From: a virus
Length of the DNA stretch: 64,000 nt
IMG/VR virus record: IMGVR_UViG_3300036828_000363
Span: 1 to 64,000 of that record
Strand: one strand, 5' to 3'
The notes beneath the pieces were generated by a model that was given only the letters and a program-made list of their open reading frames with translations, had not been told where the DNA came from and did no database searches. Position numbers and translations under genes: made by a program. Of this stretch, positions 1,204 through 64,000 are shown piece after piece (positions within the stretch are counted from its first letter, which is position 1; every line of letters begins with the position of its first letter).

Positions 1204-1331
1204 GGTACAGGCCGTTCGATTTAGGTTATCTCACTGCTAATGAGGCGATGTAGGGTTCGAATCCCTGCCGAGTTGTAAGATTCGTAGTTTAATGGTAGAA
1301 CACCATATCTAGATCATTTTTTGCTTGTACC
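1204..1331 (+). ncRNA. Y-RNA-like unit 1 (anticodon arm GCT, T arm, closed acceptor hairpin, D arm)
   Basis: GGTACAGGCCG...TTGCTTGTACC terminal stem; GGTTATC; CTCA-CTGCTAA-TGAG; GGTTCGAATCC; TAGTTTAATGGTAGAAC; upstream of Ro60 gene. Confidence 0.8.
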
Positions 1332-1340
1332 TAAATTTAT

Positions 1341-1415
1341 CGCGGGGTAGCCTAGTGGTTAGGTGCTTGGCCCATAACCAAGATGACACGGGTTCGAATC
1401 CCGTCCCCGCAACCA
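1341..1415 (+). tRNA. tRNA-Met(CAT), initiator-like
   Basis: Full cloverleaf CGCGGGG...CCCCGCA-A-CCA with C1:A72 mismatch, anticodon loop CCCATAA, T loop TTCGAAT, encoded CCA. Confidence 0.9.
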
Positions 1416-1434
1416 TTTTAGAAGTAGAAAGTTC

Positions 1435-1535
1435 GGTACAGGCCGTGAGTTTTGGTTATCGTTGGTTCGACTCCAATCGAATCGAAAGATTCGTAGCTCA
1501 GTGGTAGAGCGCCCAAGACCATTTTTGCTTGTACC
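1435..1535 (+). ncRNA. Y-RNA-like unit 2 (YrlA-type order: T arm, acceptor hairpin, D arm)
   Basis: GGTACAGGCCG...TTGCTTGTACC; GTTGG-TTCGACT-CCAAT; CGAATC-GAAA-GATTCG; TAGCTCAGTGGTAGAGC. Confidence 0.85.
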
Positions 1536-1541
1536 CAAAAT

Positions 1542-1612
1542 TTCCGTGAGCCGTTTGGTTTGGGTTACCCTATCATTCTGGAAAATACCCAGATCGCCTT
1601 TTGCCCACGGAA
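1542..1612 (+). ncRNA. Y-RNA-like unit 3 (minimal, no clear tRNA module)
   Basis: TTCCGTGAGCCG...TTGCCCACGGAA stem; inner GGTTTGGGT/ACCCAGATC stem; GGTTACC variant motif. Confidence 0.65.
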
Positions 1613-1619
1613 CGAATTT

Positions 1620-1695
1620 GACGTAGGCCGGATTCGCTCGGTTATCTTTCACTCGTAATGAAAACAGACCCGAGCAAAAAACTTTTGCTTACGTC
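1620..1695 (+). ncRNA. Y-RNA-like unit 4 (anticodon arm only, CGT)
   Basis: GACGTAGGCCG...TTGCTTACGTC (compensatory changes); GGTTATC; TTTCA-CTCGTAA-TGAAA. Confidence 0.75.
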
Positions 1696-1705
1696 TTAAA
1701 TTTTA

Positions 1706-1769
1706 TACACTGGTAGGGCTGTCCGACACTAATCGGAGCCAGCTAAAGGATCATAACCTTTCCAGTGTG
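1706..1769 (+). ncRNA. small structured RNA, three-way junction, family unknown
   Basis: TACACTGG/CCAGTGTG closing stem enclosing GGCT-GTCCGA..TCGGA-GCC and AAAGG-ATCATAA-CCTTT hairpins. Confidence 0.45.
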
Positions 1770-1794
1770 CCAGTTCTTTGACAATTCGATTCAC

Positions 1795-1918
1795 GGTACA
1801 GGCCGAGGGTTTGGGTTATCCGAATCGTAGATTCGTAGCTTAATGGTAAAGCGCCTCACTGCAAATGGGGAGAGTGTGGGTTCGAATCCCTATCCAGATT
1901 ACATTTTTTGCTTGTACC
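1795..1918 (+). ncRNA. Y-RNA-like unit 5 (acceptor hairpin, D arm, anticodon arm GCA, T arm)
   Basis: GGTACAGGCCG...TTGCTTGTACC; CGAATC-GTA-GATTCG; TAGCTTAATGGTAAAGC; CCTCA-CTGCAAA-TGGGG; GGGTTCGAATCCC. Confidence 0.8.
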
Positions 1919-1927
1919 TAAATTCAC

Positions 1928-2069
1928 GGTGTAGGCCGGAAGATTTGGGTTATCCTCACCATCCTAGAGGAAGTAGCTCAGTTGGTTAGAGCGTCAACTT
2001 GCGAAAGCAAGGAGAAGGTCATTGGTTCGAATCCAATCTTCACATCCAGATCAAATATTTGCTTACACT
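1928..2069 (+). ncRNA. Y-RNA-like unit 6 (unpermuted D arm, GNRA hairpin, T arm)
   Basis: GGTGTAGGCCG...TTGCTTACACT; TAGCTCAGTTGGTTAGAGC; CTTGC-GAAA-GCAAG in place of anticodon arm; ATTGG-TTCGAAT-CCAAT. Confidence 0.8.
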
Positions 2070-2078
2070 ATAATTCAC

Positions 2079-2240
2079 GGTACAGGCCGGTTTAATTGGG
2101 TTATCAAAACGCCGTATGTCGCGGGTTCGAGTCCCGTCACTTCTTACCACTTCTTTTGACATGAGAGAAGTAATAGAGGTGTAGTTCAGTTGGTAGAACA
2201 ACAGCCTAAAAAACACCCAGTTTAGTTTTTTGCTTGTACC
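2079..2240 (+). ncRNA. Y-RNA-like unit 7 (T arm, extended acceptor hairpin, D arm)
   Basis: GGTACAGGCCG...TTGCTTGTACC; GCGGG-TTCGAGT-CCCGT; CACTTCT...AGAGGTG with inner ACTTCT/AGAAGT; TAGTTCAGTTGGTAGAAC. Confidence 0.8.
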
Positions 2241-2250
2241 TAATTTCAAT

Positions 2251-2318
2251 CCGTGGGCCGGACGATTAGCGTTATCCTTGGCGATAAAAATGGCTGATCA
2301 GTAGTATTTTGCTCACGG
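2251..2318 (+). ncRNA. Y-RNA-like unit 8 (minimal)
   Basis: CCGTGGGCCG...TTGCTCACGG; GATTAGC/GCTGATC inner stem; GTTATC. Confidence 0.7.
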
Positions 2319-2347
2319 TAAATCTCTCTCCCAACAGAGAGGCAAAC

Positions 2348-2401
2348 CACACTGAGGGGAAGTGGTTTTGCTACACCCCTATAACCACTTCCTACAGTGT
2401 G
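2348..2401 (+). other. long hairpin in the Ro60 leader
   Basis: CACACTG..GGAAGTGGTT / AACCACTTCC..CAGTGTG. Confidence 0.5.
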
Positions 2402-2429
2402 ATCATCATTAACTACCGGAGGCACGACA

Positions 2430-4118
2430 ATGGCACGTTCATATTTGACTGAATCGCTTGATCCCAAGAAAATTCCTCAGTCCGAACCCGTTTCAAAAAT
2501 CCAAGTTCCCAACTCCGCTGGTGGATTCTCTTTCCAACTGGACAAGTGGAGTCGCCTTGAACGTTTCTTGATTCTGGGCGCAGAGAGCGGAACCTATTAC
2601 ATCAACGAGCGTTCTCTGGTTAAAGAGAATGTTTCCTGCTTGGAAGAGTGCATCAAGGAAGATGGTGTCAAAACCGTCAACGTCATCGCCTCAATTTCTG
2701 ACGATGGACGCGCTCCCAAGAATGATCCTGCGCTATTTGCGCTCGCCATGTGTTTCAAAAAGGGTGACCTGAAAACCAAGAGAGAAGCTGCAAATTCGCT
2801 TCCGTTGGTTGCTCGTATTGGTACTCACCTCTTTCATTTCGCGCAATTCATGGACGCGCTGAAAGTCGGTTGGGGGCCAGTGGTGAGACGCGCAGTTTCT
2901 GAGTGGTACATCGCTCGTGATGTAGACAAGCTCGCGTATCAGCTTGTCAAGTACCAGTCTCGCGATGGATGGTCACACCGTGACTTGATTCGTCTTTCTC
3001 ACCCGAAGCCGATTGATCAGAAACAAACTCATGCTTTGGGTTGGGCGACGGGTTCTGTGCGAGGTGAATTCAACGCTCAGTATTTGCCTTCTCTGCTCGC
3101 CGCGTTTGACGAAGCGAAGACTGCAACGGCACAACGGACAATCGAATTGATCAGGGAGCACAATCTTCCCCGTGAGTGTGTCAAGACGGAATATTTGAAT
3201 GACACGTCAGTGTGGGAAGCACTGCTCGAAAAGATGCCCGTGGGCGCGATGATTCGCAACCTTGGAAACATGACGAAGAACGGATTGATCGCTCCGAATT
3301 CCGAAGGTCTCCGGAAGGTCATTTCTCTTCTTGGTAACCGGGACGCGCTCAAAAAGGCACGTATTCACCCGTTGAACGTTTTTCTGGCACAAGCAACCTA
3401 TAAGACGGGCCGTGGTATGAAGGGTTCGAACACTTGGACGCCCGTTATGGGGGTTCTGGACGCGCTGGAAGGCGCCTTCTACACGACTTTTGACTTGGTT
3501 GAACCGACCAATAAGCGGTACTTTTTGGGACTGGACGTGTCCGGTTCTATGGGTTCCGCGATTGGCAGTTTTCCTATCACTTGTCGTGAAGGAACTGCTC
3601 TGATGGCGATGGTGACCATGAGAACCGAGAAGATTCATTTCACTGGTGGTTTCACTGCTGGGCGTGGTGCTTCACGGTGGTCAAGTTCTGGAATTGGTTC
3701 AGGTTTTACTCCGCTGAACATTTCAGCGACACAAACCCTTGATGCCGTGGTAAAGGTGACTTCTAGCCTAGAATTTGGTGGAACTGATTGTGCTCTTCCG
3801 ATGTTGTTCGCAATGGAGCACAAAATTCCTGCTGATGTCTTTGTGATCTACACAGATAGCGAGACTTGGGCAGGACACGTTCACCCTCATATCGCGCTCG
3901 AAGATTACCGTCAGAAAATGGGAATTCCCGCGAAGCTGGTAGTTGTGGGAATGACATCGAACGGTTTCACGATTGCGAATCCGAACGATGCTGGGATGCT
4001 TGATATCGCGGGATTCGACACTACTGTTCCGTCAGTTCTTGCGGACTTCGCGACTGACGGAAAAAATAAAGAAAATAAATCCGGGGAACCCCTTGAAGAA
4101 TCGTCCCCGGAGTTGTAG
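2430..4118 (+). CDS. rsr: Ro60-related TROVE + vWA RNA-binding protein
   Basis: NSAGGFSF, RLERFLILG..GTYY, KYQSRDGWSHRDLIRLSHPKP, LDVSGSM (MIDAS), GGTDCALPM, YTDSETW. Confidence 0.95.
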   Translation: MARSYLTESLDPKKIPQSEPVSKIQVPNSAGGFSFQLDKWSRLERFLILGAESGTYYINERSLVKENVSCLEECIKEDGVKTVNVIASISDDGRAPKNDPALFALAMCFKKGDLKTKREAANSLPLVARIGTHLFHFAQFMDALKVGWGPVVRRAVSEWYIARDVDKLAYQLVKYQSRDGWSHRDLIRLSHPKPIDQKQTHALGWATGSVRGEFNAQYLPSLLAAFDEAKTATAQRTIELIREHNLPRECVKTEYLNDTSVWEALLEKMPVGAMIRNLGNMTKNGLIAPNSEGLRKVISLLGNRDALKKARIHPLNVFLAQATYKTGRGMKGSNTWTPVMGVLDALEGAFYTTFDLVEPTNKRYFLGLDVSGSMGSAIGSFPITCREGTALMAMVTMRTEKIHFTGGFTAGRGASRWSSSGIGSGFTPLNISATQTLDAVVKVTSSLEFGGTDCALPMLFAMEHKIPADVFVIYTDSETWAGHVHPHIALEDYRQKMGIPAKLVVVGMTSNGFTIANPNDAGMLDIAGFDTTVPSVLADFATDGKNKENKSGEPLEESSPEL

Positions 4119-41638: not shown

Positions 41639-42307
41639 ATGGTTAAAGTTCAAGTCGCTTTTAATTTCAACGGTTCCGGTTACATCGGATTGCCTTACTG
41701 GCCCGAGCGGAACACAATCATCGACATCGGAAAAGACGTTCATCCTAAACTGGGCGCGACGAAGAAAGAGCAAGCTCTGCTCGCGGCTCTCGAAAAGCGC
41801 GGTCTCAACAAAGAGCAGTACGAAGAGATGCAGAAGAAAGCTGAGCGTCCTTTCTACACCGTGGACGGTTCCCGTGAAGGCACCATCGCCATTCCGGAAC
41901 GAATCATTCAGAGCTTCATTAACAATGCATCTATGCAGGCACCCAAAGCAATTCCGCGTGTGTCTGACAAGGGTTTGACTTTCATCGGAGTCAAGATTGC
42001 AGACAAAATGATGGTCACTGAGAAGACTATCACCGACGCGAAACTCTTCGAGCGGTTTGTCAAAATGGAAACGTCCAACCAGCGCAACTGGTGCTCCAGT
42101 TTCTACATCGATGACTTCATTGCCCGGGGCATATTCTCCGTCGATGAGGAAATCATCATGCCCGACGATTTGAAAAAGTTGATCGAGTGGGGCGGGAAAC
42201 AAATTGGTATTGGTTCCGCTCGTCCTCAGGGATATGGACGGTTTCAAGTTGCTGGCTGGGATTATCTGACTCCCGTGCCTGTGACCAAACCGATTGAAGA
42301 AGAATAA
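41639..42307 (+). CDS. solo RAMP/Cas7-like RNA-binding protein
   Basis: AGGAG RBS; N-terminal beta strand + YIG; IAIPERIIQSFINNA; C-terminal Gly-rich loop GIGSARPQGYGRFQV typical of RAMPs. Confidence 0.7.
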   Translation: MVKVQVAFNFNGSGYIGLPYWPERNTIIDIGKDVHPKLGATKKEQALLAALEKRGLNKEQYEEMQKKAERPFYTVDGSREGTIAIPERIIQSFINNASMQAPKAIPRVSDKGLTFIGVKIADKMMVTEKTITDAKLFERFVKMETSNQRNWCSSFYIDDFIARGIFSVDEEIIMPDDLKKLIEWGGKQIGIGSARPQGYGRFQVAGWDYLTPVPVTKPIEEE

Positions 42308-42353
42308 AGCCCGAGTCGGAGTCCCTGTCCCGGTTGAAGTTACAGTCAAAGAG
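42306..42353 (+). repeat. single hexamer-periodic unit directly after the RAMP stop codon
   Basis: gcc cga gtc gga gtc cct gtc ccg gtt gaa gtt aca gtc aaa. Confidence 0.75.
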
Positions 42354-43623: not shown

Positions 43624-43818
43624 AACTTTCACTCGCCGCGCAACAACTAGAGCAAATAAAGGCTGAGCGTAATCTTTTCGGGCCTATCCGGTCATATTTG
43701 AACTGGTGTTTGCATATGTCAAAGGCGGTTGATCTATACGACCTGATTTGACATTTTCGCGAAGTTGTATCAACGTAGTAGTACCCACGGAAGAATCCGT
43801 GAACAAAGGAGTACCACA

Positions 43819-44910
43819 ATGGCAGCTAAAACTCTTAGTAAAGAGGCAGTTCTTCTGGCAGTAGCAGAAGAGAAGTTGGGTTTCTCATTCGGAAAACCAG
43901 ATCGTCCATCCGAGAAATCTTTAGCTTGTATCCTTCCTATCCTTCGGGAAACCACATTTGTCCGTCAGTATGTCACCATGCCAGAGACAGAAAACGTTCT
44001 GGTGACCGACAGTGGAATGATCAACAAAATCAATATCAAAAACACTGGGAAAGAAAACGTCTTCCTTCGCTCAGGTACTATCTTCGAAGGTAAAGGAACC
44101 CAGTCCAGAATTATTACCCGGAGCGCGGTATTGTTCCCCGGTTCGGAAGTCGCGCTCGATGCCCGGTGTGTTCACGCGAGTCATGGGATTCGTACTGGAA
44201 GCAATTTCAAGTACAGTGGCACCGTTCCAATGGATGTTGAGAACGCGAGCTACACAGCAGGTTTCACTCCAGCAGATCAACACACGGTGTGGTCAAACGT
44301 CACCAGAACTACCACGGCCATGAATGCCATGCTGGGTGGTAAAAGAGTAAGCGCGGATATTTCAGGACGTATTCCCGGTGTTCGTCACACATTCACCTCA
44401 AGTCACGGTATGTTCGGTGCTTCAATATCTACTCCGCAAGAGGAACAAGGGGAACAAGAAAGAAGCTGGCCCGGATTCGCGCAAGACAACCTAAAAAAGA
44501 ATTTTGATGAGTTCGCAGAGAACTTTGATGACATTCTTTCCAAGGCGCGCTTGCATGACAATCAGTGTGGGTTGTCTCTGATCACCGATACCGGATGCAA
44601 GACCATCGAATTGTTTGATGTCCCGTTGTCATGGGAGTCACTCCACAAAGACGCGGTCAAACGTATGGGCACAGAACTACTGAGAGGCGAAGACAAAACC
44701 AGTGTGTTCGAGTACAAACCCGAGCACGCAGTCAACGCCGTCAAAAAAGTTCTGACGATGGACTTCAAAGCAAATATGATCTACGAGCACAAACCAGCAA
44801 ACGGTGAACCACATGTCGCAATCTTCGGACTAACCTCGAAGCAGTACGTTGGTGAGGTGGTGGAGATGAGCGGGCAGATGATTCACTTGACCATTTTAGA
44901 AATGGCATAG
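43819..44910 (+). CDS. ARPP-1/DUF6569-like protein
   Basis: AAGGAG RBS; N.G...VFL..G.IFEG...Q.RII......V..RCVH...Q..VW..V. Confidence 0.55.
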   Translation: MAAKTLSKEAVLLAVAEEKLGFSFGKPDRPSEKSLACILPILRETTFVRQYVTMPETENVLVTDSGMINKINIKNTGKENVFLRSGTIFEGKGTQSRIITRSAVLFPGSEVALDARCVHASHGIRTGSNFKYSGTVPMDVENASYTAGFTPADQHTVWSNVTRTTTAMNAMLGGKRVSADISGRIPGVRHTFTSSHGMFGASISTPQEEQGEQERSWPGFAQDNLKKNFDEFAENFDDILSKARLHDNQCGLSLITDTGCKTIELFDVPLSWESLHKDAVKRMGTELLRGEDKTSVFEYKPEHAVNAVKKVLTMDFKANMIYEHKPANGEPHVAIFGLTSKQYVGEVVEMSGQMIHLTILEMA

Positions 44911-45404
44911 TCCAAGTCATTGACATGGTCAAAGTTGAAGCCGAAGTCCAAGAAGCCGGAGTCCCAGTTTTAGTTTAAGTCATTGCCAAAGTCGAAGTTT
45001 AAGAAGCCGAAGTTGAAGACGCAGTTTTAGTCCAAGTCTGGGCGCAGTCATAGAAGCCGAAGTCGCGGTCTATGTCGAAGTTATAGCCTTAGTCAAAGAA
45101 GCCGCAGTCAAAGTTTGAGTCCTTAGCAATGACAAGGTTTAAGTCGAAGTCTGAGAAGCCTGAGTCCGAGTCAAAGCTTGAGCTATGGTTGATGTTTAAG
45201 TCTGAGCTTAAGTCGAAGCAGCCGTAGTCTAAGTCCTAGCTAGGTCTAGGTTCTAGTCGAAGTCAAGGTCGTAGAAGCCGAAGTCGGAGTCACAGTTGCA
45301 GTTGAAGTCATAGCATGGACATAGACGAAGTCTAGGTTTGAGTCTAAGAAGCTAGTGTCAAAGTTCTAGTTGTAGTCGAAGTCGTAGTCTAAGTTGAAGT
45401 CGCA
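44905..45404 (+). repeat. non-coding hexamer-periodic array 1 (about 9 units)
   Basis: units of GAA + (GYY-NN-A)n; stop codons in all six frames. Confidence 0.9.
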
Positions 45405-45422
45405 AAATCAGGAGTTTTTTTA

Positions 45423-45587
45423 ATGATCATGGATTTTACTGCAACTAAAAGATTTTTGGAATTGCTTCGTAAGCAAAATATGGATGGCAAGGTGTCCAAG
45501 TTGCAATTCGAACTTGAAGCATTACTTCTGCTTGCTGATGCTCAGAACAGTAAAAATTCCCAGCCCAAGTCGTGGTTAAAGTCATAG
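45423..45587 (+). CDS. 54-aa ORF embedded between the arrays
   Basis: GGAG RBS; MIMDFTATKRFLELLRKQ...SWLKS. Confidence 0.5.
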   Translation: MIMDFTATKRFLELLRKQNMDGKVSKLQFELEALLLLADAQNSKNSQPKSWLKS

Positions 45588-46712
45588 TTACAGTCAAAGA
45601 AGCCATAGCCGAAGTCCGAGTTCAAGACAAAGCAATGACTAAGTCTTAGAAGCCGGAGCGCGGTCACAGTTCATGTTTAAGCCGTAGTCACAGAAGTCGT
45701 AGTCGGTGTCAAAGTTTCAGGCACAGTCCTAGTTTTAGTCGAAGAAGCCGGAGTCGCAGTTATAGACCCAGACATAGACGTAGTCGAAGGAAAAGTCGAA
45801 GCATAGTCGTAGACTAAGCAAAGTCGAAGTAGCCGAAGTCAAAGCTTCAGTGGAGTCGAAGTCCAAGTCATAGTCTTTGGCGTTGTCATAGTCTCAGAAG
45901 CTGCTGTCCCAGTCTAAGTTGAAGACGTTGTCTAAGTCGTAGAAGCTTGAGTCACAGTCGAAGTTGCTGTTCTAGTCGGAGTCGTAGTCAGAGTCAAAGA
46001 AGCCAAAGTCTTTGCTTAAGTCTCGTTCCATGTCTAAGTCGTGGAAGCTGAAGTCGTAGTCGAAGTCAAGGCAATGTCGCGGTTATAGTCTTAGTCAAAG
46101 GCGCGGAAGTCGTAGCCGCAGTTGAAGACCGAGTCCCAGACTACGTTAAAGTCAAAGAAGCTGAAGTCAAAGCCTAGTCGTGGTCGTAGCTCAAGTCACA
46201 GTCGTAGTCAAAGAAGCCATAGTCGCAGTTGAAGTCGAAGTTCAAGTCACAGTCATAGAAGCCAAAGTCTGAGTCAAAGTTAGGGACGATGTTCAGGTCA
46301 ATGTTTAAGAAGCTTAAGTCACAGTTATAGTCGAAGCTCAGTCAAGATCACTGTCCTAGTCAAAGAAGCCGAAGTCATAGTTGGAGTCGAAGTTATAGTT
46401 GAAGTCGTAGCTAGGTCATAGTCTCAGAAGCCATAGTCGAAGACAGAGACATGGTCGTAGTCTTAGTCGCAGTTGAAGTCGAAGAAGCCATAGCCAAAGT
46501 TCAAGTCGCGGATTCAGTCGAAGTCGAAGTTCTAGCACAGTTGCAGTCAAAGGCATAGTCCAAGAAGTCTAAGTCAAAGTCAAGGCCTTAGTCGAAGTCG
46601 AAGTCCTAGAAGTCTCAGTCTCAGTTAATGTTGCAGTCTATGGCTACGTCTCAGAAGCTGAAGTCACGGTCATAGTTCAAGTCAAAGTCTTAGTCATAGC
46701 CGAAGTCATGGA
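45559..46712 (+). repeat. non-coding hexamer-periodic array 2 (about 21 units)
   Basis: same grammar; units about 45-80 nt; ends at the stop codon of the convergent gene. Confidence 0.9.
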
Positions 46713-47389
46713 AAAGTAATTTGTGTTCTAGCACCATCTTCTGCCCATTTGATGATCGATGGTAGTCTGGATTCCAGTTTGAAATGTGATACCCATTTCA
46801 GCATTTTTTCTAACGTGTCCAGTACCCGAAGAGTATTCTCTTCCGTCCTGTCCAGATGATGAGAACATAGCCCACCACGTGTTTTCATATCTGCTTGCAT
46901 CATATTCCTAACTCCAGCTTTTTCCTGTCCACCACTCAAAGTGAAAAATTCTTTCGGAACCATGAAATGCCTAAACCGAATACCTGCTGGATAGCTACAG
47001 TGAAATGGAATAGTAGTTGAGTATAGCTCACATCCATAGTTTTCCCTGTTCAAATACTTGCAGTGTTCCTTTCCCGGTAAGCAGTTATCCATTACTGAGA
47101 TAATAGGAAATTTCTCCCCGTTGAATTCAATCTGACGTTCTACCCCGCCTTCGTGTTTCTCTCCCGGTAGCCAGTCCAGTGTCGCTCTACTACAACATGC
47201 TCCACACCCCAACTTACATTCAAAGCGAAGAAATAAATCCGGTTTGACGATTAGTTCCACTGGTTGAAAAGTTCTACCCGCATATCGAAATGGTTTTACT
47301 GCTAGCGCATGAAACCATACTTCAATCATTGATGCCACCATGTCGGATGGTTTACTGCCACCATTTCGAATTTGAATAAGTTCTAGCAT
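46706..47389 (-). CDS. Cys-cluster (YkgJ/CxxCxxCC-like) protein
   Basis: FECKLGCGACC...CKYL....CELY...P..C..YP. Confidence 0.55.
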   Translation of the reverse strand: MLELIQIRNGGSKPSDMVASMIEVWFHALAVKPFRYAGRTFQPVELIVKPDLFLRFECKLGCGACCSRATLDWLPGEKHEGGVERQIEFNGEKFPIISVMDNCLPGKEHCKYLNRENYGCELYSTTIPFHCSYPAGIRFRHFMVPKEFFTLSGGQEKAGVRNMMQADMKTRGGLCSHHLDRTEENTLRVLDTLEKMLKWVSHFKLESRLPSIIKWAEDGARTQITFP

Positions 47390-56044: not shown

Positions 56045-58936
56045 ATGGGCAAGAGTAATTTCAAAGACGCAGTCAAACAGCGACTGACTCCACAGGTACG
56101 CAGTCTGGGCGCTGCTCCCCCCGTAAGTGTACCTGCGAGCGCGCAACTCCTCGGGTTAGGGGAGATACTTGCGCCGGGCGGTAGCCAGACGGTTGAAGAT
56201 ATTGCGAATGAGTACTGGTTCTCCGCGCTTCAACCTATTAGGCCAATGGCGCCTACTAGCTACCGCCCAAGACAACGAGCGTTTACTCCCGGTGAAAATA
56301 TCATTTGGACTCCGGGTGATGACAAAGGCGGAATTGACTACGACATTCTCAGAGTGCTCGCGGATTCTTGGGATATACTTCGCCTAGTTATCGAGACGCG
56401 TAAAGATCAGCTAGCTCGTGCTCCTTGGGAGATTCGTCTAAAGACTAAACCCGGAGATATGAAGGCAGACATAGAGAAAGCCGCTCAGACTGACAAAAAC
56501 ATTATAGCGTTGTCTCAATTCTTCGCGTGCCCAGATGGTTACCACAACTATAGACAGTGGCAAAGAATGTGGATGGAAGATAGCTTTGTGATTGACGCAG
56601 TCGCGCTATATCTTGAACGGGATAAAAGCAAAAAGATTGCTTCAGTCCATCCATTGGATGGTGGAACCATCAATCGTATCATTACCGATCAAGGTTTCAC
56701 ACCACCAGCACCAGATGTAGCATATCAGCAAGTCGTCTATGGCACGCCTGCATGTAATCTGTCTACAGATGACATGTTATATGTCATGCACAATGAGCGG
56801 ACTCATCGTAGATATGGTTACAGCCCAGTTGAGCAGATACTTATTACCATTGGTCTCGCGTTAAAGAGGCAAGAGTTTCTAACCAAGTATTACACGGATG
56901 GCAATATACCAGAGGCGTTGTGTTTTCTTCCTGCATCTCTTAATCCGAACCGCATTCGTGAGATTCAAGAATGGTTCGATTCCATCATGGTTGGTGACAT
57001 AGCGAAGCGTAGGCGGTTAACCTTCCTTCCCGGCTACGGTTCAGGACTACATGACGCTCATCCTAACCTAGTCTTCTCAAAAGAGACTTTGCTTAAAGAC
57101 CCGATGGATGAGTGGCTAGCTCAGATAGTTTGCTACGCGTTTTCTGTATCGGCACAAGCGTTCCAGAAAATGATGAATAGAGCAACTGCTCAAGTCGCGT
57201 CAGACAGCGCGTCAGAAGAAGGATTGGAACCCGCTTTAAACTTTGTCGCGGACGTTAACAACGACATCATTGCGAAAATGGGATTAGGGGATAAGTATGA
57301 GTTTGCCTACAAAGACAAACGGGAGACTGATCCACTAAAGCAAGCACAGATCGATGGACTGCTAACTGGAAAGATCAACACCATAAACGAAACCAGAAAA
57401 AGACGTGGTGATGATCCATACAACAGTCCAAACGCGGATAAGCTCGGGGTGTTTGGAGTCAATGGTTTTATCCCATTAGATACTCCGCCACCACAACCAC
57501 AACCGGGAGTGCCCGGTTCGTCTCCATTTGGTGGTCAACCGGGTAAACCCGGTGATCAACAACAAGAACAACAAGGTAAACAAGGTTCTGCGCCAAACCA
57601 ACAAGGGGCTGGCTCAGATAAGGGGAAGAATCCAAAAGCGATATCCGGCGCAGATGGTTCTTCCCCTAAACAGCCCCAGAACGGTAAGCAGAAACAACCG
57701 CCACAACTTCAAGCTCCGGGGAAGAAACAACAGACGCCCGGTGCAAATGTCAATGTAAATGTCAACGTTAAACATAAGCAGGAGAAAGTAGAAGGTATCG
57801 AACTATTCTCTGCATTCTCTGGTGCCTATGAACCACTGATGAAATACTCCGAAGATGAAGCACGCGATGAACATGGCATGTGGACATCAGATGGTAGTAG
57901 TGGTGGAAGCAGTGAAGGTGAAGGTTCTTACGCCGCGTCTTACCATAATGAAGCAGACTTTCAATCGACTGAACCCGGTTCGCGTAGCAATCCAATCGCG
58001 TGTGGCGATGACATAGGAAAAGCGCAGCAGCTTATATCTGAAGGTAAACACGTCACCCTGAATCAACCAGATCAAATAGCGTCATTGGTTGAGAAGATGA
58101 AAACAGAAGGTGATGCTGCAAAAGCCGCAGGTAAGCCAGTTCCTAACTGGAATATAGCAGACGTTTCAGTTCCGGGAACCAACCTATTCGCGCAAGAAAA
58201 CTTGGGGATTCCAAGAGTCAACATGCCTCAGTTTTCGGGACTCGCAGAACCCGGTTCACGTGCTGCGGCGCTTTTGCCTAAAGGCGCGGATATAAAGACT
58301 GCTCAAATTGATGTATCCTCTCAGTTCATCAAGTCGCTTGAAGATGAAGGAATCAAGTCCACTGATGAAACCGTGCTTGCGTCTCATCTTAGAGCGACAC
58401 AAGGAGAATTGGATGGTTGGAAGGTTGGTTCAATTGCAGCTAGGATACAAGCAGGTCAACTACCAGAAGCACCTATCTTCGTAACCAAAGACAATTACAT
58501 TCTTGATGGGCATCATAGGTGGGCTGCAATCATTGTCAATGACGTAAGGTCAAAATTTGGCACTACGACTATGCCAGTCCATCGCTTAAACATTGACATA
58601 GGTACTGCGCTAACTAAGTCGATGGACTTTCAGAAGGAATGGGGAATTGGTGCTAAAGGAATGGGACAGGTGATGAAGCGGTACGTTCTACAGAGTGATG
58701 GATCAGTCTTAGTAGAAGACTTCAGCACGAGGCACATGACCAAAATTATTCGGGTGAACGGCAACATGGAAAAAGGAAAATTTGTTCATCCTGAGTTAGG
58801 TGACCTAGCTAACTTTGAAAAGTTTTGTGCCTATGACCCGGAGACAGGAACGATTTACATTCGAGGCGATGTTGATGAGAGAATTGCTTTCTCTCAACTA
58901 AAAACCGCTTATCCTCAATTGAATATTGAACTATGA
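56045..58936 (+). CDS. portal protein with Gln/Pro-rich linker and C-terminal ParB-like domain
   Basis: YGYSPVEQI, YYTDGNIP, NRATA, TINE.R; then KYSEDEARDEHGMWT and IFVTKDNYILDGHHRWAA. Confidence 0.85.
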   Translation: MGKSNFKDAVKQRLTPQVRSLGAAPPVSVPASAQLLGLGEILAPGGSQTVEDIANEYWFSALQPIRPMAPTSYRPRQRAFTPGENIIWTPGDDKGGIDYDILRVLADSWDILRLVIETRKDQLARAPWEIRLKTKPGDMKADIEKAAQTDKNIIALSQFFACPDGYHNYRQWQRMWMEDSFVIDAVALYLERDKSKKIASVHPLDGGTINRIITDQGFTPPAPDVAYQQVVYGTPACNLSTDDMLYVMHNERTHRRYGYSPVEQILITIGLALKRQEFLTKYYTDGNIPEALCFLPASLNPNRIREIQEWFDSIMVGDIAKRRRLTFLPGYGSGLHDAHPNLVFSKETLLKDPMDEWLAQIVCYAFSVSAQAFQKMMNRATAQVASDSASEEGLEPALNFVADVNNDIIAKMGLGDKYEFAYKDKRETDPLKQAQIDGLLTGKINTINETRKRRGDDPYNSPNADKLGVFGVNGFIPLDTPPPQPQPGVPGSSPFGGQPGKPGDQQQEQQGKQGSAPNQQGAGSDKGKNPKAISGADGSSPKQPQNGKQKQPPQLQAPGKKQQTPGANVNVNVNVKHKQEKVEGIELFSAFSGAYEPLMKYSEDEARDEHGMWTSDGSSGGSSEGEGSYAASYHNEADFQSTEPGSRSNPIACGDDIGKAQQLISEGKHVTLNQPDQIASLVEKMKTEGDAAKAAGKPVPNWNIADVSVPGTNLFAQENLGIPRVNMPQFSGLAEPGSRAAALLPKGADIKTAQIDVSSQFIKSLEDEGIKSTDETVLASHLRATQGELDGWKVGSIAARIQAGQLPEAPIFVTKDNYILDGHHRWAAIIVNDVRSKFGTTTMPVHRLNIDIGTALTKSMDFQKEWGIGAKGMGQVMKRYVLQSDGSVLVEDFSTRHMTKIIRVNGNMEKGKFVHPELGDLANFEKFCAYDPETGTIYIRGDVDERIAFSQLKTAYPQLNIEL

Positions 58937-61900
58937 GTTTATTCGCCGTCAATCTCGATTCTAAGGTTGTACCGTTTGCGGTAGCTTTGCATGAAGGTCT
59001 AGAGACAGTTGAAGGTTTAAAGGCAAGGACTAAAGCAATGTGCTTTAGGATTGTTGCGAAAGATTACAATGAAGATGAAGCACGTGATGAGCAAGGTAGA
59101 TGGACATCGACTGGTTCGGTTGAACTGTATAGTCCTAATGTAGAGGAAAACCTGACATTTGCTGACGCTCAAAAACGTTTGGGTGGCGCAGATCAAGCAC
59201 GTTTTCGCTCTATCGCGAATGGCATTGATAAACAGTTAGGACTTCAAACGAAGTCACAGAATGCGATTGGTGATTGGAAAGATGGTGCAGAGAATTCTGT
59301 AGTCACTTACGTGAAACCGGGAATGGACTTTGACACCGTTCGGTATTCAACTGTCATCAAGGGACTATCAGCAAACCAAAAAGCAGTCGTCGCGTTCAAC
59401 GTTCAACCCGGTGGTGAGGATTCCATATACCACTTTCACACAGACGGGAAAGCAAACGATGTACGGAACGTTTTAGATGTTAATGGATTGAGTTTCCGCA
59501 CATTGGTTCCGGTAGAGAGTGGAACTGATGTTGTGATCTTTGATCCCGGAAGAAAACTACAAGCGAATGTAGAGAAGGTAGCAGAGCATTATGGGACGCA
59601 AGTTGATCAATACGACGGAAAAGGCGAATACATCGGCGGAGACACCAGAGCAGAAGGTGCAAAGCAGTTTAAAGGAATCATCAAGTCCTACGAGCAGTCG
59701 CATACGCAACGTTACGTCGAACCAAAAGGGCGCCGCATGGCAGCTCTTAGGCGTGCCTACGACGAAGCCCGACTCCAAAAGCGACAGCTAATCATTCTCG
59801 GTAAATACTCCGAAGAGCAAGAGCGAGTACCCGCAGGTTCACCAGAAGGTGGACAGTTCGGTGCTGCGTGGGCGATGAGTCGCGATGAATACACGGGTGG
59901 ATGGAAACCCGATGAGACGGATGATCAAAGACAGGAACGGCGCGACAAAGAACAAGTCTGGGAACAAAAAACACTTGCCGCAGTTTCAGAAGGGAAACTA
60001 GACCCAGCAATGGCGGAGGCGCGTGGTGCAGGTCTCAATGTATCCGGGAAAGTTTTTCAACCACTTCCTGATGTGCCTTTGTATCACGTTACTACTGCCG
60101 CAGATGCTGTTATAGCAGACGGTCTCAAGTCTAGGTTCGAACTAAACATGGGACAAGGAACCGGATTAGGTGGTGGTGATGACAAGAGCATAAGTTTCGC
60201 AGCTGATCCAAAAATTGGTGGTGAAATTCGTGATGCTATGTTAGAAGCTCACGATGTCGCGAATGGAAAAATCTCAGTTCAGGACATGCTAGATCAAGCA
60301 GCGAAAGGTGAAGGCACGCCTAGTCCTTATTTGACGAATACTGTTCGTTGGGGTAGTGCTAATCTTGCTGGTAGTCCTGATTGGAATCCGGGTGATCCAT
60401 ATCCAATGGGATTAGACGCTTTGATTCATGGTAATGAATTGAGTCCAACTAAATTTGGTGGATACTCAGAAGAAGATATGCCCGGTTGGACTCCGCGCAA
60501 AGACAGTTATAGTTGGATGGGTGGCGATGGTAAGATGCGCTACAATACTTTCGAACGACCAATGAGCGCAGAACAATTACGCAGTGATACATTCGACTTC
60601 TACAAAACGTTTTCCGCAGTCAGAGAAGACGCGGGTGGCAGACTTAATCCACTTTTCTTTTCCTCAGACCTAAAGGCGTTTGCCGCGACTCCCAAAGATC
60701 AAATTCAGCTATTGGAGTTCAAAAAGCAACCCGGTGCTATGGGTGTTAGTTTGTCTGCTGGTGGTTTGGGTGAATGGCGTACTTATAGTGGTAAGGCAGT
60801 CAAGTATGTAGGTCGGGTGACTAAAGCATCGTTACCAGAATTAGTCAAAAAGTTCAACGAGCGTTTCTTGATGGAGTTCGGAAAGGCGTTCGTATTTCTA
60901 CCTGAGCTATCAAAATACTCAGAAGATCAAGCACGAGTACCAGCGGGTTCACCAGATGGCGGACAGTTCACCAGTGGTGAGGGTGGAGTTAGCTTTGACC
61001 CGAAGTCAGATCAGAAGACTATTGAAGCATACAAGAAAGAAAGTGGTTGGGTTCCATCCCGCTCAACGCTTCATGAGAAAATCATCAATAGTGATTTAGC
61101 TGGAAAGGAACCTATAAGTGATCCACCAGTCGCGACAATCTTAGGTGGTGGAACCGCGTCAGGCAAATCTAGCTTATTTAGGGAGATGAGTAAAAACCCG
61201 AATGTAGTTCACATCGATTCTGATGACGTGATCAAGCAATTACCAGAGTGGGAAAAGCTTAGGATGGTTGATCCTCAGAACGCGGCACCCCGTTTGTATG
61301 ATGAAGCGAAAGTCGTGTCCAAAGACTTGCTTGGGCGATCAGTTTCTCGGAACTTAGACTTGATCTATAACGGAGTGGGTTCAAAACCTACTACTTTAGC
61401 GATGGTGAAGACACTTAATGATGAAGGGTACAAAGTCAATGTCGCATATGTTGACCTTCCGGTAGATACTGCTATAGAGAGAATGTTTAGTAGGGCAGCT
61501 AATCCAAACGATGCGGATTTTGGTCGTCTCGTTCCACTGGAATTAGTCAGATCGAGCAATCAGGGTGCTGCGGAAAACTTCATGAGGTTGAAAAACATGA
61601 ATGAAGTCAGTTCCGCGACTCTGTATAGCAATATCAATAGACCCCGGACTCTAGTCTTCACCAAAGAAAATGGCAAAGAGACTATTCACGATCAGAAGCT
61701 ATGGGATGACTTCGTCAAGAAGACATCGGGGATGAAAAAGGCTGCTGACAATCGGAAGTACGAAGATGAGCACGACATTTTCTCTGAACCAGAAGATGTA
61801 GAGGACTTGAAGCGTTATATCGAAAAAGAAAAGCAAAGACTAAAAGACAAAAAAGACAAAGGCAAAGAAAAAGAAGCGAAGAAAGTTTACAAGTCAGTTG

Positions 61901-64000
61901 ATCCTGCTACCGGAGAGGTAACACACAAGTTCGGACTAGTTCAGGTGATCATCCCGCAGGATTCGGACGTAGCACTTGGACTAAAAACGATTCAAGAACT
62001 AATTCCGGATAGCGACCTAATGGGTGAAGGGAAAGAAGACGAACCACATGTAACCGTTCGCTATGGAATACTACCCGGTGCTGACATATCTAAGCTACGT
62101 GATTACCTTGCTTCAGTTCAACCGTTTGAAGTGACCACTGGTAAAATCACTGCCTTTTCCCCTAGTAAGAATTCAGACTGGGCGTGTCCATTAGTAGTTG
62201 AGATAGATTCCAGTCCGACGCTCACTAAGTACTCCGAAGATCAAGCAAGAGATGATCATGGTAGATTCGCAAGTGAAGACGGAGCGCCATCGACAGATAA
62301 ACCAGTTACGCTGGTATTCAGTGGCACTTTCAATCCGCCTCATATGGGACACGTACAAGCTGTCACCGACGCGCTCAATCACATGAAAGACAATGGCTAT
62401 GATGTCAAGAATGTGGTTGTGGTTCCCGCGCCACAGAGATTAGTCGATAAGAAGTTAGGTGATAAAGCGTATCCATTGGATGAACGTGTAGAGCTTGCTC
62501 GTCGTACATTTACAACTGACACGGTCAACCATCCTAACGTTACTGTAACTGGGGAACCATCTGATGCCGCAGACAAGTTGGAAGGAAAACTAAAGCGTAC
62601 ACACACCGCAGATTTTCTGCAATCGAAATACCCAGATACTTCCGTGGTCACTATCACTGGTGAGGATTCCGCGCCAGGCGCGAATCCACCAAAGGCACCA
62701 GCTCTATACTCCGGTGACAAAGGAACGAGTCACGAAGGGCACTATTACTTCAACGCGCCACGCGCAACAGAAGGCGGTTTCAGTTCAACTGCAATTCGTA
62801 ATGCAATCCGCGAAGGTAAAGAGTTACCAGCGGGTACAATGCATCCCAACGCGGTTAGCTATCTTCCGTCTCTCTTTGAGCACCACCCCGGTATCAAGAA
62901 GGTTCTCAAATACTCGGAAGATCAAGCACGAGATGATCATGGAAGGTTCGCGAGCGAAGGTATTGCCATAGACAAAGTCTCTGAGTTGAATAGTAGTCAC
63001 GCACGTGGCCCGGAAGACAAAGAATTGAAGGGATGGGCAGAAACTTATGCTCACTTTCAAAACTCGAAAGACCCGAGAGAACAAAATGCCTACAACGCAA
63101 GTATACTCGGTGAGCATATTTCCGAAGAATTGATGGAACAACAACATTGGGAAGATGAGCATCCCGGCCCGCGTGGTACACACGTTCTGATTCTCAAGGA
63201 TGATAAAAATACCATTGTAGGCGCGCTACAAACATATGATGGTAAGAGGGACGAACCATATACCGTGTCTTACCTCGCAACTAATCCTAAAATTATCATG
63301 GGCGATATGGCATACAAAGGTGTTGGTACTACACTCATGATTAAAGCTGCAAATGACGCAGCCGCATTAGGTAAGGGAGTAGAGCTTTATGCGCTTGAAG
63401 GTGCCGAAAGCTTTTATTCCAAACTGGGTATGGCGCGTAGCGTGACTAACATTGGACAGGTTAAGTTTAATTGGACACCGGAACAAGCTGCGTCTTTTGC
63501 GAAGCATGGTATGACTAAGTTCACGCAAGATGAAGTTAGGAAAATGATAGCTGCGGCAATAAAAGAGGAAGAGACTACACCGCCACTCGCGTCGATTCCG
63601 GAATCTAAAAAACTTGGTAAGTACTCCGAAGATCAAGCGAGAGACTATCATGGAAGGTTTGCGAGTGAAGACGCGACTCCAGAAGAGCATGACAATCATT
63701 TAGCATCCACTCCAATAAAAACCATCTCTACTCTGGGCGGTGGAGTCACTGACACTCGCATGGTTAATTTTGAAGATGGTACCAAAGGTGTATTTAAACC
63801 GGACAGTGGCGAGTCTAAAGGTCAACGCTTTGACATCATGGAAGGTTATCAGTCAGCGCGTGAGGCGGGAGCATGGGAAGTCGCGAAGGCGGTTGGGTTA
63901 ACTGATCTAGTTACGCCTGCTATCGTTCGTACCATTGATGGAGAAAAAGGTGTGGTACTGGAATGGCAGAATGGAGATATAGCTCGGAACTTGACCAACA
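58933..64000 (+). CDS. giant polyvalent protein (at least 1689 codons, runs off window): ART-like, zeta-toxin-like kinase, partial 2H phosphoesterase, NadD-like nucleotidyltransferase, GNAT, PI3/4-kinase-like
   Basis: hand translation shows no stop from ATG 58933; LYHVT..GL..GEWR; GGGTASGKS..IDSDD..GRLVP; PHVTVRYG; SGTFNPPHMGH..GED..SSTAIR; YKGVGT.LM..FYSKLGM; LGGG..GVFKP..RE..AW. Confidence 0.85.
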   Translation, partial: MSLFAVNLDSKVVPFAVALHEGLETVEGLKARTKAMCFRIVAKDYNEDEARDEQGRWTSTGSVELYSPNVEENLTFADAQKRLGGADQARFRSIANGIDKQLGLQTKSQNAIGDWKDGAENSVVTYVKPGMDFDTVRYSTVIKGLSANQKAVVAFNVQPGGEDSIYHFHTDGKANDVRNVLDVNGLSFRTLVPVESGTDVVIFDPGRKLQANVEKVAEHYGTQVDQYDGKGEYIGGDTRAEGAKQFKGIIKSYEQSHTQRYVEPKGRRMAALRRAYDEARLQKRQLIILGKYSEEQERVPAGSPEGGQFGAAWAMSRDEYTGGWKPDETDDQRQERRDKEQVWEQKTLAAVSEGKLDPAMAEARGAGLNVSGKVFQPLPDVPLYHVTTAADAVIADGLKSRFELNMGQGTGLGGGDDKSISFAADPKIGGEIRDAMLEAHDVANGKISVQDMLDQAAKGEGTPSPYLTNTVRWGSANLAGSPDWNPGDPYPMGLDALIHGNELSPTKFGGYSEEDMPGWTPRKDSYSWMGGDGKMRYNTFERPMSAEQLRSDTFDFYKTFSAVREDAGGRLNPLFFSSDLKAFAATPKDQIQLLEFKKQPGAMGVSLSAGGLGEWRTYSGKAVKYVGRVTKASLPELVKKFNERFLMEFGKAFVFLPELSKYSEDQARVPAGSPDGGQFTSGEGGVSFDPKSDQKTIEAYKKESGWVPSRSTLHEKIINSDLAGKEPISDPPVATILGGGTASGKSSLFREMSKNPNVVHIDSDDVIKQLPEWEKLRMVDPQNAAPRLYDEAKVVSKDLLGRSVSRNLDLIYNGVGSKPTTLAMVKTLNDEGYKVNVAYVDLPVDTAIERMFSRAANPNDADFGRLVPLELVRSSNQGAAENFMRLKNMNEVSSATLYSNINRPRTLVFTKENGKETIHDQKLWDDFVKKTSGMKKAADNRKYEDEHDIFSEPEDVEDLKRYIEKEKQRLKDKKDKGKEKEAKKVYKSVDPATGEVTHKFGLVQVIIPQDSDVALGLKTIQELIPDSDLMGEGKEDEPHVTVRYGILPGADISKLRDYLASVQPFEVTTGKITAFSPSKNSDWACPLVVEIDSSPTLTKYSEDQARDDHGRFASEDGAPSTDKPVTLVFSGTFNPPHMGHVQAVTDALNHMKDNGYDVKNVVVVPAPQRLVDKKLGDKAYPLDERVELARRTFTTDTVNHPNVTVTGEPSDAADKLEGKLKRTHTADFLQSKYPDTSVVTITGEDSAPGANPPKAPALYSGDKGTSHEGHYYFNAPRATEGGFSSTAIRNAIREGKELPAGTMHPNAVSYLPSLFEHHPGIKKVLKYSEDQARDDHGRFASEGIAIDKVSELNSSHARGPEDKELKGWAETYAHFQNSKDPREQNAYNASILGEHISEELMEQQHWEDEHPGPRGTHVLILKDDKNTIVGALQTYDGKRDEPYTVSYLATNPKIIMGDMAYKGVGTTLMIKAANDAAALGKGVELYALEGAESFYSKLGMARSVTNIGQVKFNWTPEQAASFAKHGMTKFTQDEVRKMIAAAIKEEETTPPLASIPESKKLGKYSEDQARDYHGRFASEDATPEEHDNHLASTPIKTISTLGGGVTDTRMVNFEDGTKGVFKPDSGESKGQRFDIMEGYQSAREAGAWEVAKAVGLTDLVTPAIVRTIDGEKGVVLEWQNGDIARNLTN

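What the first reader, a model, noticed from the sequence alone, without database searches (positions are those of the whole stretch)
44905..46712. The variable positions of the array decode as codons: a gapped, wobble-skipping target code
Seen: removing the fixed motifs and reading the remaining triplets gives protein-like strings. 45693-45743 gives gta ggt aaa tca aca cta tta gaa = VGKSTLLE, the tail of a Walker A motif. 45829-45896 gives EKSGEQIFVIS, resembling the QIFVISH H-loop of SbcC/gp46-type ATPases. Others give EAYEILK, EEALQWAI, EVEKNAILKA, ETIQKLIEM and, reading TAN as Tyr and TGN as Cys/Trp, GATHYVT, YKKLEEL and CRKCMDY. The third base is mostly A, which creates TAA/TGA, so only the first two bases appear informative. 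Inference: guides match NNx-NNx-NNx in coding DNA in frame, ignoring the wobble base, so synonymous mutation gives no escape. If the + strand is the RNA it is mRNA-sense and would pair with the DNA template strand. The phage's own SbcC (AGKTTLLD, QIWIADH) and clamp loader (VGKTTLAR) do not match, consistent with non-self targets such as competing phages. These readings were picked by eye and short strings can look protein-like by chance.
Basis: partly seen in the sequence, partly recalled or inferred. Interest (0 to 1): 0.92.

Follow-up and report, generated by a model that had tools for sequence, protein, structure and literature searches.

The report
Six-base VIPR-like phage guide array

Summary
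The array (44905-45405, 45555-46712) is about 216 hexamers NN+AGYC and about 31 nine-base marks, so dropping the fixed triplet leaves triplets, and the quoted strings are there.

The RNA triplets are not codons. Stop-like triplets make up 12% and are not depleted, and the third base belongs to the scaffold.

The gapped-code idea matches the published VIPR rule (2026 preprints): only the NN of each repeat pairs with DNA, and one base is skipped, usually the codon wobble base.

Evidence here:
- The 222-aa gene at 41639-42307 is a Cas7/Csm3-like RAMP with distant similarity to SUSP1 Vipr.
- In about 20 distinct metagenome loci its homologues are followed directly by the same kind of array on the same strand.
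- NN composition fits codon positions 1-2 in sense (r 0.75-0.87) and no other register.
- NN strings are kept as shuffled cassettes between two phages while scaffold bases drift.
- One homologous guide spells a conserved vipr motif in frame (p about 0.03).

No natural target of the window's own guides was found.

All VIPR repeats described in the papers I read have a five-base step, so this is a new variant of a known kind. The scan has noted one other six-base array, in another genome.

The parts
41639..42307 (+). vipr-like gene: 222-aa minimal RAMP (Cas7/Csm3-like fold with a C-terminal glycine-rich loop)
   Evidence: AF2 model pLDDT 87.7. Foldseek E 5e-6 to Csm3 chains. VIA-align Z 12.7, and all top 36 matches are CRISPR RAMPs. 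The family profile hits the SUSP1 Vipr protein (36pp_D) at E 3.2e-5. 96 homologues found.
42309..42350 (+). mini-array of seven hexamers, starting one base after the stop codon of the vipr-like gene
   Evidence: Sequence read. It is the only other array-like stretch in the 93-kb record. It is absent from the related phage.
44905..45405 (+). array part A: about 10 units of 5-9 hexamers NN+AGYC, each opened by a nine-base mark. It starts on the stop codon of the upstream ARPP-1 gene.
45423..45587 (+). 54-aa ORF with a ribosome-binding site, embedded in the array and conserved in the related phage. Its role is unknown, and whether it belongs to the system is uncertain.
   Evidence: No family hit.
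45555..46712 (+). array part B: about 21 units. It contains the cassettes shared with the related phage, including the VGKSTL and GAIPIVE readings.

Best explanation
The array is the guide-RNA array of a VIPR-like system whose protein is the RAMP gene at 41639-42307.

Shown here:
- The protein has a Cas7/Csm3-type fold and weak sequence similarity to SUSP1 Vipr.
- Across about 20 distinct loci its homologues are followed at once, on the same strand, by arrays of the same grammar: two free bases, then A or T, G, Y, C, with nine-base marks every 6-14 repeats.
- The free dinucleotides are conserved as cassettes while scaffold bases drift.
- Their composition is that of codon positions 1-2 in sense.

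Inferred by analogy with published VIPR:
- The plus strand is transcribed.
- One protomer binds each six-base repeat, holds the four constrained bases and presents NN.
- The NN of a unit (6-10 dinucleotides) pair with a DNA strand while every third target base is skipped. The guide therefore reads codon positions 1 and 2 and ignores wobble changes.
- Binding silences genes of competing phages or other mobile elements.
- The nine-base marks (a truncated repeat plus a repeat with constant GA) probably delimit the guides, as in the 'staggered' or punctuated VIPR arrays.
- The near-exclusive sense composition suggests that the guides pair with the template strand.
For: Protein: AF2 pLDDT 87.7; Foldseek E 5.4e-6 to Csm3; VIA-align Z 12.7, rmsd 3.0 over 135 residues, with CRISPR RAMPs filling the top of the list; profile hit to SUSP1 Vipr at E 3.2e-5 over the G-loop region.

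Linkage: arrays lie only on the gene's strand, directly after the stop, in L244-L276. The RAMP is the only gene conserved across these loci. Terminator-like hairpins follow several arrays.

Information in NN: 11 shared NN runs of 5-8 between the window and the related phage, in shuffled order, against a null of 0.14 runs of 5 and 0.005 runs of 6. In the five runs of 6 or more, counting hexamer-to-hexamer pairs by hand, NN differ at 0 of 62 sites while the scaffold differs at 34 of 124.

Codon register: r 0.75, 0.69 and 0.87 with codon positions 1-2 in sense; 0.29 or less for every other register.

Guide example: the first unit of the L249 array matches the conserved vipr motif KMEESNQ at 7 of 7 dinucleotides, in frame and in sense, in L247 and L250. 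Its own gene uses AGC for that serine. Shuffle p is about 0.03.

Unit at 45750: 6 exact matches in IMG/VR, all in sense, wobble-aligned and inside ORFs of 238-934 codons. The same dinucleotides in reverse order gave 0 matches.

Published mechanism.
Against: No natural target was found for any unit of the window. There was no excess over order-shuffled controls at any skip length in 289 kb of related loci, in 20 vipr genes taken as a set, or in three whole related phage genomes. A second conserved cassette gave 23 IMG/VR matches, about the chance number, and none was wobble-aligned. Five of the six hits for unit 45750 are homologues of one another and none extends beyond the nine-dinucleotide seed, so that result is weak. 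The NN bias (purine first, A or T second) is nearly the same in all arrays and could be a binding preference of the protein rather than an imprint of codons. TA makes up 9-10% of NN here against 3% at codon positions 1-2. Transcription, processing and binding are untested. The repeat step (6) and motif differ from every VIPR type described in the papers I read. The G-loop residues that read GG in SUSP1 Vipr align with S and A here.
Confidence: 0.6

Rival explanations
1. The array RNA binds the Vipr-like protein but is not a set of working guides. It would act as a scaffold, sponge or decoy, for example to soak up a competitor's Vipr or to regulate its own protein. The NN pattern would then reflect binding preference and shared descent.
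For: No targets were found. The NN bias is uniform across arrays. Decoy and 'solo vrRNA' roles are described for VIPR elements. The main array lies 2.6 kb from the gene, behind another gene.
Against: Selective conservation of NN over scaffold in shared cassettes is not expected of a sponge. The codon 1-2 composition and the in-frame vipr-motif guide also argue against it.
Confidence: 0.15
2. The NN are guides but follow another geometry than the published one. They might read RNA rather than DNA, use a different skip length (a six-base step on the target also keeps codon phase), or use position 3 as well.
For: The step is 6 rather than 5, and the residues that contact the motif differ. Composition alone cannot separate a skip of 1 from a skip of 4. 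The sense-only bias differs from SUSP1, which targets both strands.
Against: The L249 guide matches seven consecutive codons, which is a skip of 1. Position 3 changes freely between orthologous cassettes. A skip of 4 gave nothing locally.
Confidence: 0.15
3. A DNA-level repeat unrelated to the RAMP, for example a packaging or recombination element next to the small terminase gene.
For: The array sits just upstream of the small terminase gene in both phages.
Against: In about 20 other loci the same arrays follow the RAMP gene with no terminase nearby, always on its strand.
Confidence: 0.03
4. A decayed or recoded protein-coding repeat (alternating V-x on the plus strand, or D-x / T-x on the minus strand).
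For: Real coding repeats can give similar hexamer patterns (L060, L136, L140, L197).
Against: There are stops of all three kinds in all six frames, and frame-breaking five-base units. The constrained bases are kept while the would-be codons vary. The stretch is non-coding in all homologous loci.
Confidence: 0.02

Closest known systems
VIPR systems (Vipr protein plus vrRNA), type II exemplar Escherichia phage SUSP1; bioRxiv 10.64898/2026.04.26.720920 and 10.64898/2026.04.26.720927
   Same: A lone minimal RAMP gene, mainly in phages. An adjacent non-coding tandem array on the same strand in which a constrained motif alternates with hypervariable NN. NN composition and one guide are consistent with reading codon positions 1-2 with the wobble base skipped. 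A guide against another system's vipr gene that spares its own locus.
   Different: The repeat step is 6 (NN + A/T-G-Y-C), not 5 (Y-NN-GG). There is no structured 3' tail (fold z +1.8). One continuous 1.8-kb array of about 250 repeats replaces the roughly 100-nt vrRNAs. No conserved vap partner gene was found. The residues that read GG in SUSP1 Vipr are replaced. Guide composition is sense-only.
VIPR 'staggered' or punctuated arrays and non-canonical repeats (NNNGG, YNNNG, NNNNG; GAC/NN, WGT/NN and others): same preprint, and bioRxiv 10.64898/2026.10.21.760802
   Same: Long arrays without tails, split into short guide-sized blocks by a regular longer unit. Constant motifs other than GGY.
   Different: All of these are described with a 5-nt period. 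The periodicity survey names bands at 5, 18 and 60-79 nt, plus odd clusters at 10, 8 and 7, and does not mention 6.
Class 1 CRISPR backbone subunits (Cas7 family: Csm3, Cmr4, type VII Cas7)
   Same: Best structural matches of the protein. Cas7 filaments bind crRNA in 6-nt steps.
   Different: No CRISPR repeat-spacer array and no other cas genes. Here four of six bases are constrained and two are free, whereas Cas7 leaves five of six bases free to pair.
Type III toxin-antitoxin systems (ToxIN and relatives)
   Same: A protein gene next to a tandem-repeat RNA, sometimes with a hairpin between them. Phages can carry mimic arrays.
   Different: ToxI-type repeats are 36-45 nt, nearly identical and structured, and the toxin is not a RAMP. 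Considered and rejected.

Membership tests
VIPR | Vipr protein: minimal RAMP with RRM core, glycine-rich loop, thumb and helical bundle | tested here: met
   AF2 model with a three-helix insert at residues 21-68, beta hairpins at 135-168 and a C-terminal G-loop. Csm3/Cmr4/Cas7 are the top fold matches. Profile hit to SUSP1 Vipr at E 3.2e-5.
VIPR | Adjacent non-coding tandem array in which a constrained motif alternates with hypervariable NN | tested here: met
   Position-specific composition. Gene-array linkage in about 20 distinct loci.
VIPR | Five-base repeat unit (YNNGG or a related pentamer) | tested here: not met
   The period is 6 in the window and in all homologous arrays. Published alternatives are all pentamers.
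VIPR | Conserved structured 3' tail on each vrRNA (type II) | tested here: not met
   No tail between units, only nine-base marks. The array folds less well than shuffles, z +1.8. No Rfam match. Other published types also lack tails.
VIPR | vipr-accessory (vap) gene in the locus | tested here: inconclusive
   No neighbouring gene is conserved across 10 or more loci. The ARPP-1 gene and the embedded 54-aa ORF are shared only with the close relative.
VIPR | NN read the DNA target with one skipped base, mostly at the codon wobble position | tested here: inconclusive
   For: composition, the L249 guide, unit 45750 against its reversed control. Against: no excess over shuffles and a second cassette at chance level.
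VIPR | vrRNA is expressed and co-purifies with Vipr | not testable with these tools
   Requires RNA sequencing and pull-down.
VIPR | Mainly viral or proviral distribution | tested here: met
   The window is a 93-kb virus record. The family was found in 1 of 401 genomes sampled from the phylum of the MAG that carries L276 (an Acidobacteriota MAG by its record title). Most homologues are on metagenome contigs.
CRISPR-Cas class 1 (type III-like) | CRISPR repeat-spacer array and further cas genes (cas10, cas5, cas6, adaptation genes) | tested here: not met
   No 25-40 nt repeats. No conserved neighbouring genes. Only weak Csm4 hits at E 0.036 for P0001 and 0.0026 for P0093 in PADLOC.

The most novel reading that the evidence does not exclude
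This is a separate six-base branch of VIPR in which each protomer holds four RNA bases and presents two. Six RNA bases would then span three DNA bases, giving the same 6-nt protein step as CRISPR Cas7 filaments. It could be an intermediate between five-base VIPR and class 1 CRISPR backbones. Its guides would be cut out of a tail-less mega-array at nine-base marks and would be aimed only at the template strand of genes.
Probability: 0.35. Interest if true: 0.8.

Novelty: new variant of a known kind. Interest (0 to 1): 0.62.

Why it matters
VIPR was described only in 2026, and always with five-base repeats. A Vipr family that uses a six-base step, a different constant motif and punctuated mega-arrays would widen the known grammar of this non-contiguous RNA code. 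It would give a natural test of how the RNA-to-DNA step ratio is set (6:3 against 5:3). It also bears on the proposed descent of CRISPR Cas7 filaments, which use a 6-nt step, from Vipr. Finally, it offers about 30 natural guides in one soil phage, and about 150 in related loci, whose targets could reveal who competes with whom in soil and peat viromes.

Tried and rejected
Coding readings: all six frames have stops. No single recoding opens a frame. The S-x frame is open only because the motif cannot form a stop in it.

Database searches that found nothing:
- blastn of the array and its flank against the phage collection.
- Rfam.
- The promoter and terminator scan showed nothing special inside the array.

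Searches for more arrays:
- Generic pattern scans of IMG/VR for more arrays mostly returned chance hits or real coding repeats.
- The RAMP family was found in 1 of 401 genomes sampled from the phylum of the L276 MAG, so no further arrays came from there.

Searches for targets:
- Local gapped-match tests at skips of 0-4 showed no excess over shuffles.
- Vipr genes taken as a set of targets showed no global excess.
- Whole genomes of two related phages and the window's own genome showed no excess, and no self-match with one mismatch or fewer at a skip of 1.
- The cassette at 45161-45212 gave a chance-level number of IMG/VR hits, none wobble-aligned.
- An 8-dinucleotide match from L255 to L252 is not wobble-aligned and is probably chance.

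Other attempts:
- Complex prediction with three copies of the RAMP gave no answer.
- No RNA holder was listed among the sequencing runs.
- No supplementary files are held for the VIPR preprint, so I could not check whether this protein family is among its 667 systems.

Ideas considered and dropped once the RAMP linkage appeared: a terminase pac site or concatemer-junction repeats, arrays of primase recognition sites (GTC/GTT), Chi-like arrays, a TRAP/Hfq/CsrA-type RNA sponge, a ToxIN-like antitoxin array, and a diversity-generating template.
Full report
WHAT IS THERE

Window 44905-46712 has no ORF of 40 codons or more apart from one 54-aa gene at 45423-45587. It is built from six-base units. 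Same-base autocorrelation is 0.51-0.52 at lag 6, with a second level at 45/51/57.

A dynamic-programming segmentation gives:
- 216 hexamers with two free bases followed by A (80%), G (99%), T (83%, otherwise C or A) and C (74%) or T (25%);
- 33 nine-base marks (free dinucleotide, then AGAAGCC), one every 5-9 hexamers;
- about 14 five-base units.

All units lie on the plus strand. Elsewhere in the 93-kb virus record the grammar occurs only as seven hexamers at 42309-42350. The plus-strand RNA would be unstructured (z +1.8 against shuffles), and Rfam finds nothing.

CHECK OF THE OBSERVATION

Read as codons of the RNA they fail:
- 30 of 249 are stop triplets.
- TA and TG occur as often as independence of the two positions predicts.
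- All six frames are closed.

The A at position 3 is therefore part of the scaffold. In orthologous units of a related phage it changes freely to T or G.

THE PARTNER PROTEIN

An earlier first-reader note on this genome proposed that the 222-aa gene at 41639-42307 is RAMP-like, so I tested it.
- It has 96 homologues at 50-70% identity, mostly from soil and peat metagenomes.
- An AlphaFold2 model built on 25 of them has pLDDT 87.7.
- Foldseek places it with Csm3 chains (E 5.4e-6).
- The Foldseek-independent search gives Z 12.7 (rmsd 3.0, 135 residues) to a type III Csm chain. Only CRISPR RAMPs appear in the top 36.
- A profile search of solved-structure sequences gives one significant hit, the 'SUSP1 Vipr protein' (36pp_D, E 3.2e-5), over the glycine-rich loop.

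GENE-ARRAY LINKAGE

I fetched 31 metagenome loci and 2 genome loci that encode homologues.
- Every distinct locus with sequence after the gene (about 20) has the same kind of array. It starts within 0-80 bases of the stop codon and is always on the gene's strand.
- The grammar is conserved: G at position 4 in 89-100% of hexamers, C at position 6 in 71-100%, Y at position 5. One clade (L259-L261) has T instead of A at position 3.
- Nine-base marks occur every 5-14 repeats.
- Several arrays end in terminator-like hairpins, and some have a hairpin between the gene and the array.
- No other gene is conserved across these loci.
- The family is rare in cellular genomes: 1 of 401 genomes sampled from the phylum of the L276 MAG.
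- A close relative of the window's phage (RAMP 94% identical, ARPP-1 protein 87% identical) has a 2-kb array in the same place, between the ARPP-1 gene and the small terminase gene.

WHAT IS KNOWN

The Vipr hit led to four 2026 preprints.
- VIPR systems consist of a minimal RAMP (Vipr) and vrRNAs made of 9-16 five-base repeats, in which a conserved GGY alternates with hypervariable NN.
- One protomer binds each repeat, sequesters GGY and presents NN.
- The NN pair with double-stranded DNA while every third target base is skipped. Most natural targets are coding, with the skipped base at the wobble position.
- Targets are satellites, prophages and other VIPR loci.

All published repeat variants have a five-base period (NNNGG, YNNNG, NNNNG; GAC/NN, WGT/NN and others). 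A survey of periodic intergenic arrays names bands at 5, 18 and 60-79 nt, plus odd clusters at 10, 8 and 7, and does not mention 6. No supplementary tables were available to me.

DOES THE CODE HOLD HERE?

1. Composition. NN frequencies correlate with codon positions 1-2 of this phage's 59 long ORFs at r 0.75 (window), 0.69 (relative) and 0.87 (1374 NN from 19 other arrays). Every other register gives r 0.29 or less, and the reverse complement gives -0.1. The codon 1-2 model also has the best likelihood among the codon and genome models.
   - Caveat: the bias (purine first, A or T second) is nearly the same in all arrays and could be a binding preference. TA is three times too frequent for tyrosine.
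2. Conservation. The arrays of the window and its relative share 11 runs of 5-8 identical dinucleotides, in a different order. Shuffles give 0.14 runs of 5 and 0.005 runs of 6. In the five runs of 6 or more, counting hexamer-to-hexamer pairs by hand, NN differ at 0 of 62 sites and the scaffold at 34 of 124. The free bases are thus the conserved information, and the units behave as movable cassettes. The VGKSTL and GAIPIVE readings are two of these cassettes.
3. A guide with a plausible target. The first unit of the L249 array matches, at 7 of 7 dinucleotides, in frame and in sense, the family's most conserved motif (KMEESNQ) in the vipr genes of L247 and L250. L249's own gene encodes the same peptide but uses AGC for the serine and so escapes. 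Order-shuffled units reach such a match in 3% of trials. Guides against other vipr genes that spare their own locus are described for VIPR.
4. Collection scans.
   - Unit 45750 (nine dinucleotides) has 6 exact gapped matches in IMG/VR. All are in sense, wobble-aligned and inside ORFs of 238-934 codons, five of them in one protein family. The same dinucleotides in reverse order have none. The hits do not extend beyond the seed.
   - A second conserved cassette gave 23 hits, about the chance number, and none was wobble-aligned.
5. Shuffle-controlled searches found no excess at any skip length. This held in 289 kb of related loci, for vipr genes as a set, and in the whole genomes of the window's phage, its close relative and a 165-kb phage that shares the ARPP-1 gene. 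No unit matches the window's own genome with one mismatch or fewer. These databases are small and probably lack the true targets.
6. The only in-frame VIGKSTL-type hit (six of eight dinucleotides, spelling VGKSTL) lies in the Walker A motif of a DnaB-like helicase of the 165-kb phage, not in an SbcC gene.

VERDICT

- The array is real, non-coding, and the conserved partner of a Vipr-like RAMP. I put this at about 0.9.
- Its dinucleotides carry selected information (about 0.8).
- That they read DNA as NNx in the codon register rests on analogy with published VIPR plus three supportive but not decisive tests (about 0.6).
- The system works like VIPR and is probably a distant member of that superfamily. 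It fails the five-base step shared by every type described in the papers I read. It also lacks a 3' tail, and no conserved accessory gene was found.
- I file it as a new variant of a known kind.
- Earlier reports of this scan describe many five-base VIPR arrays and one six-base array with a different constant motif in another phage. I did not check those reports.

Noticed in passing
window 45423-45587; L003 7682-7835 and 7250-7513: Small ORFs with ribosome-binding sites sit inside the arrays. The 54-aa one is conserved between the two phages. The relative has a second ORF that runs from unique sequence into the array and stops there. No family hit, so these could be accessory genes or moron-like insertions.
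   Followed up: partly
window 46706-47389 (-): A 227-aa gene with a weak CxxCxxCC zinc/iron-chelating domain hit lies on the opposite strand between the array and the small terminase gene. It is absent from the close relative, where the array runs up to the region upstream of the terminase gene.
   Followed up: partly
window 43765-44910 (+): A gene with an ARPP-1 domain (PF20208, E 1e-21) ends exactly where the array begins. A 52%-identical homologue in a complete 165-kb phage has no array after it.
   Followed up: partly
window 42309-42350 against G404:C1 about 144418 (-): The mini-array's seven dinucleotides match, at 6 of 7 and in frame, the ARPP-1 homologue of the 165-kb phage (RGPDETN). 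The window's own ARPP-1 gene matches at only 2 of 7. About 0.5 such hits are expected by chance in the sequence searched, so this is a lead only.
   Followed up: partly
L276 / G001:C11:225566-226203: In the Acidobacteriota MAG the vipr-like gene is split into two overlapping frames (a frameshift or an assembly error), although a 1.1-kb array of about 160 hexamers follows it.
   Followed up: no
L259-L261 arrays: One clade of the family uses T instead of A at hexamer position 3 and mostly C at position 5 (NN+TGCC), with marks ending in GAAGTC. This suggests the scaffold motif co-varies with the protein.
   Followed up: no
L277-L280, L282 (IMG/VR contigs): Five low-GC viral contigs share a long ORF with a conserved GAIPIVE motif that unit 45750 spells exactly. 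I did not run a family search on this ORF. It is not established as a target.
   Followed up: partly
L060 6100-6230; L136, L140, L197: Real coding repeats (a V/Q/E/A/P linker, and Thr-x repeats on the opposite strand) give similar hexamer patterns. They are the main false positives when such arrays are searched by pattern.
   Followed up: yes
window 1204-4118 and 58933-64000: Other first-reader notes on this genome (a Ro60 gene with a Y-RNA-like array, and a giant polyvalent ORF) were listed by the scan index. I did not examine them.
   Followed up: no
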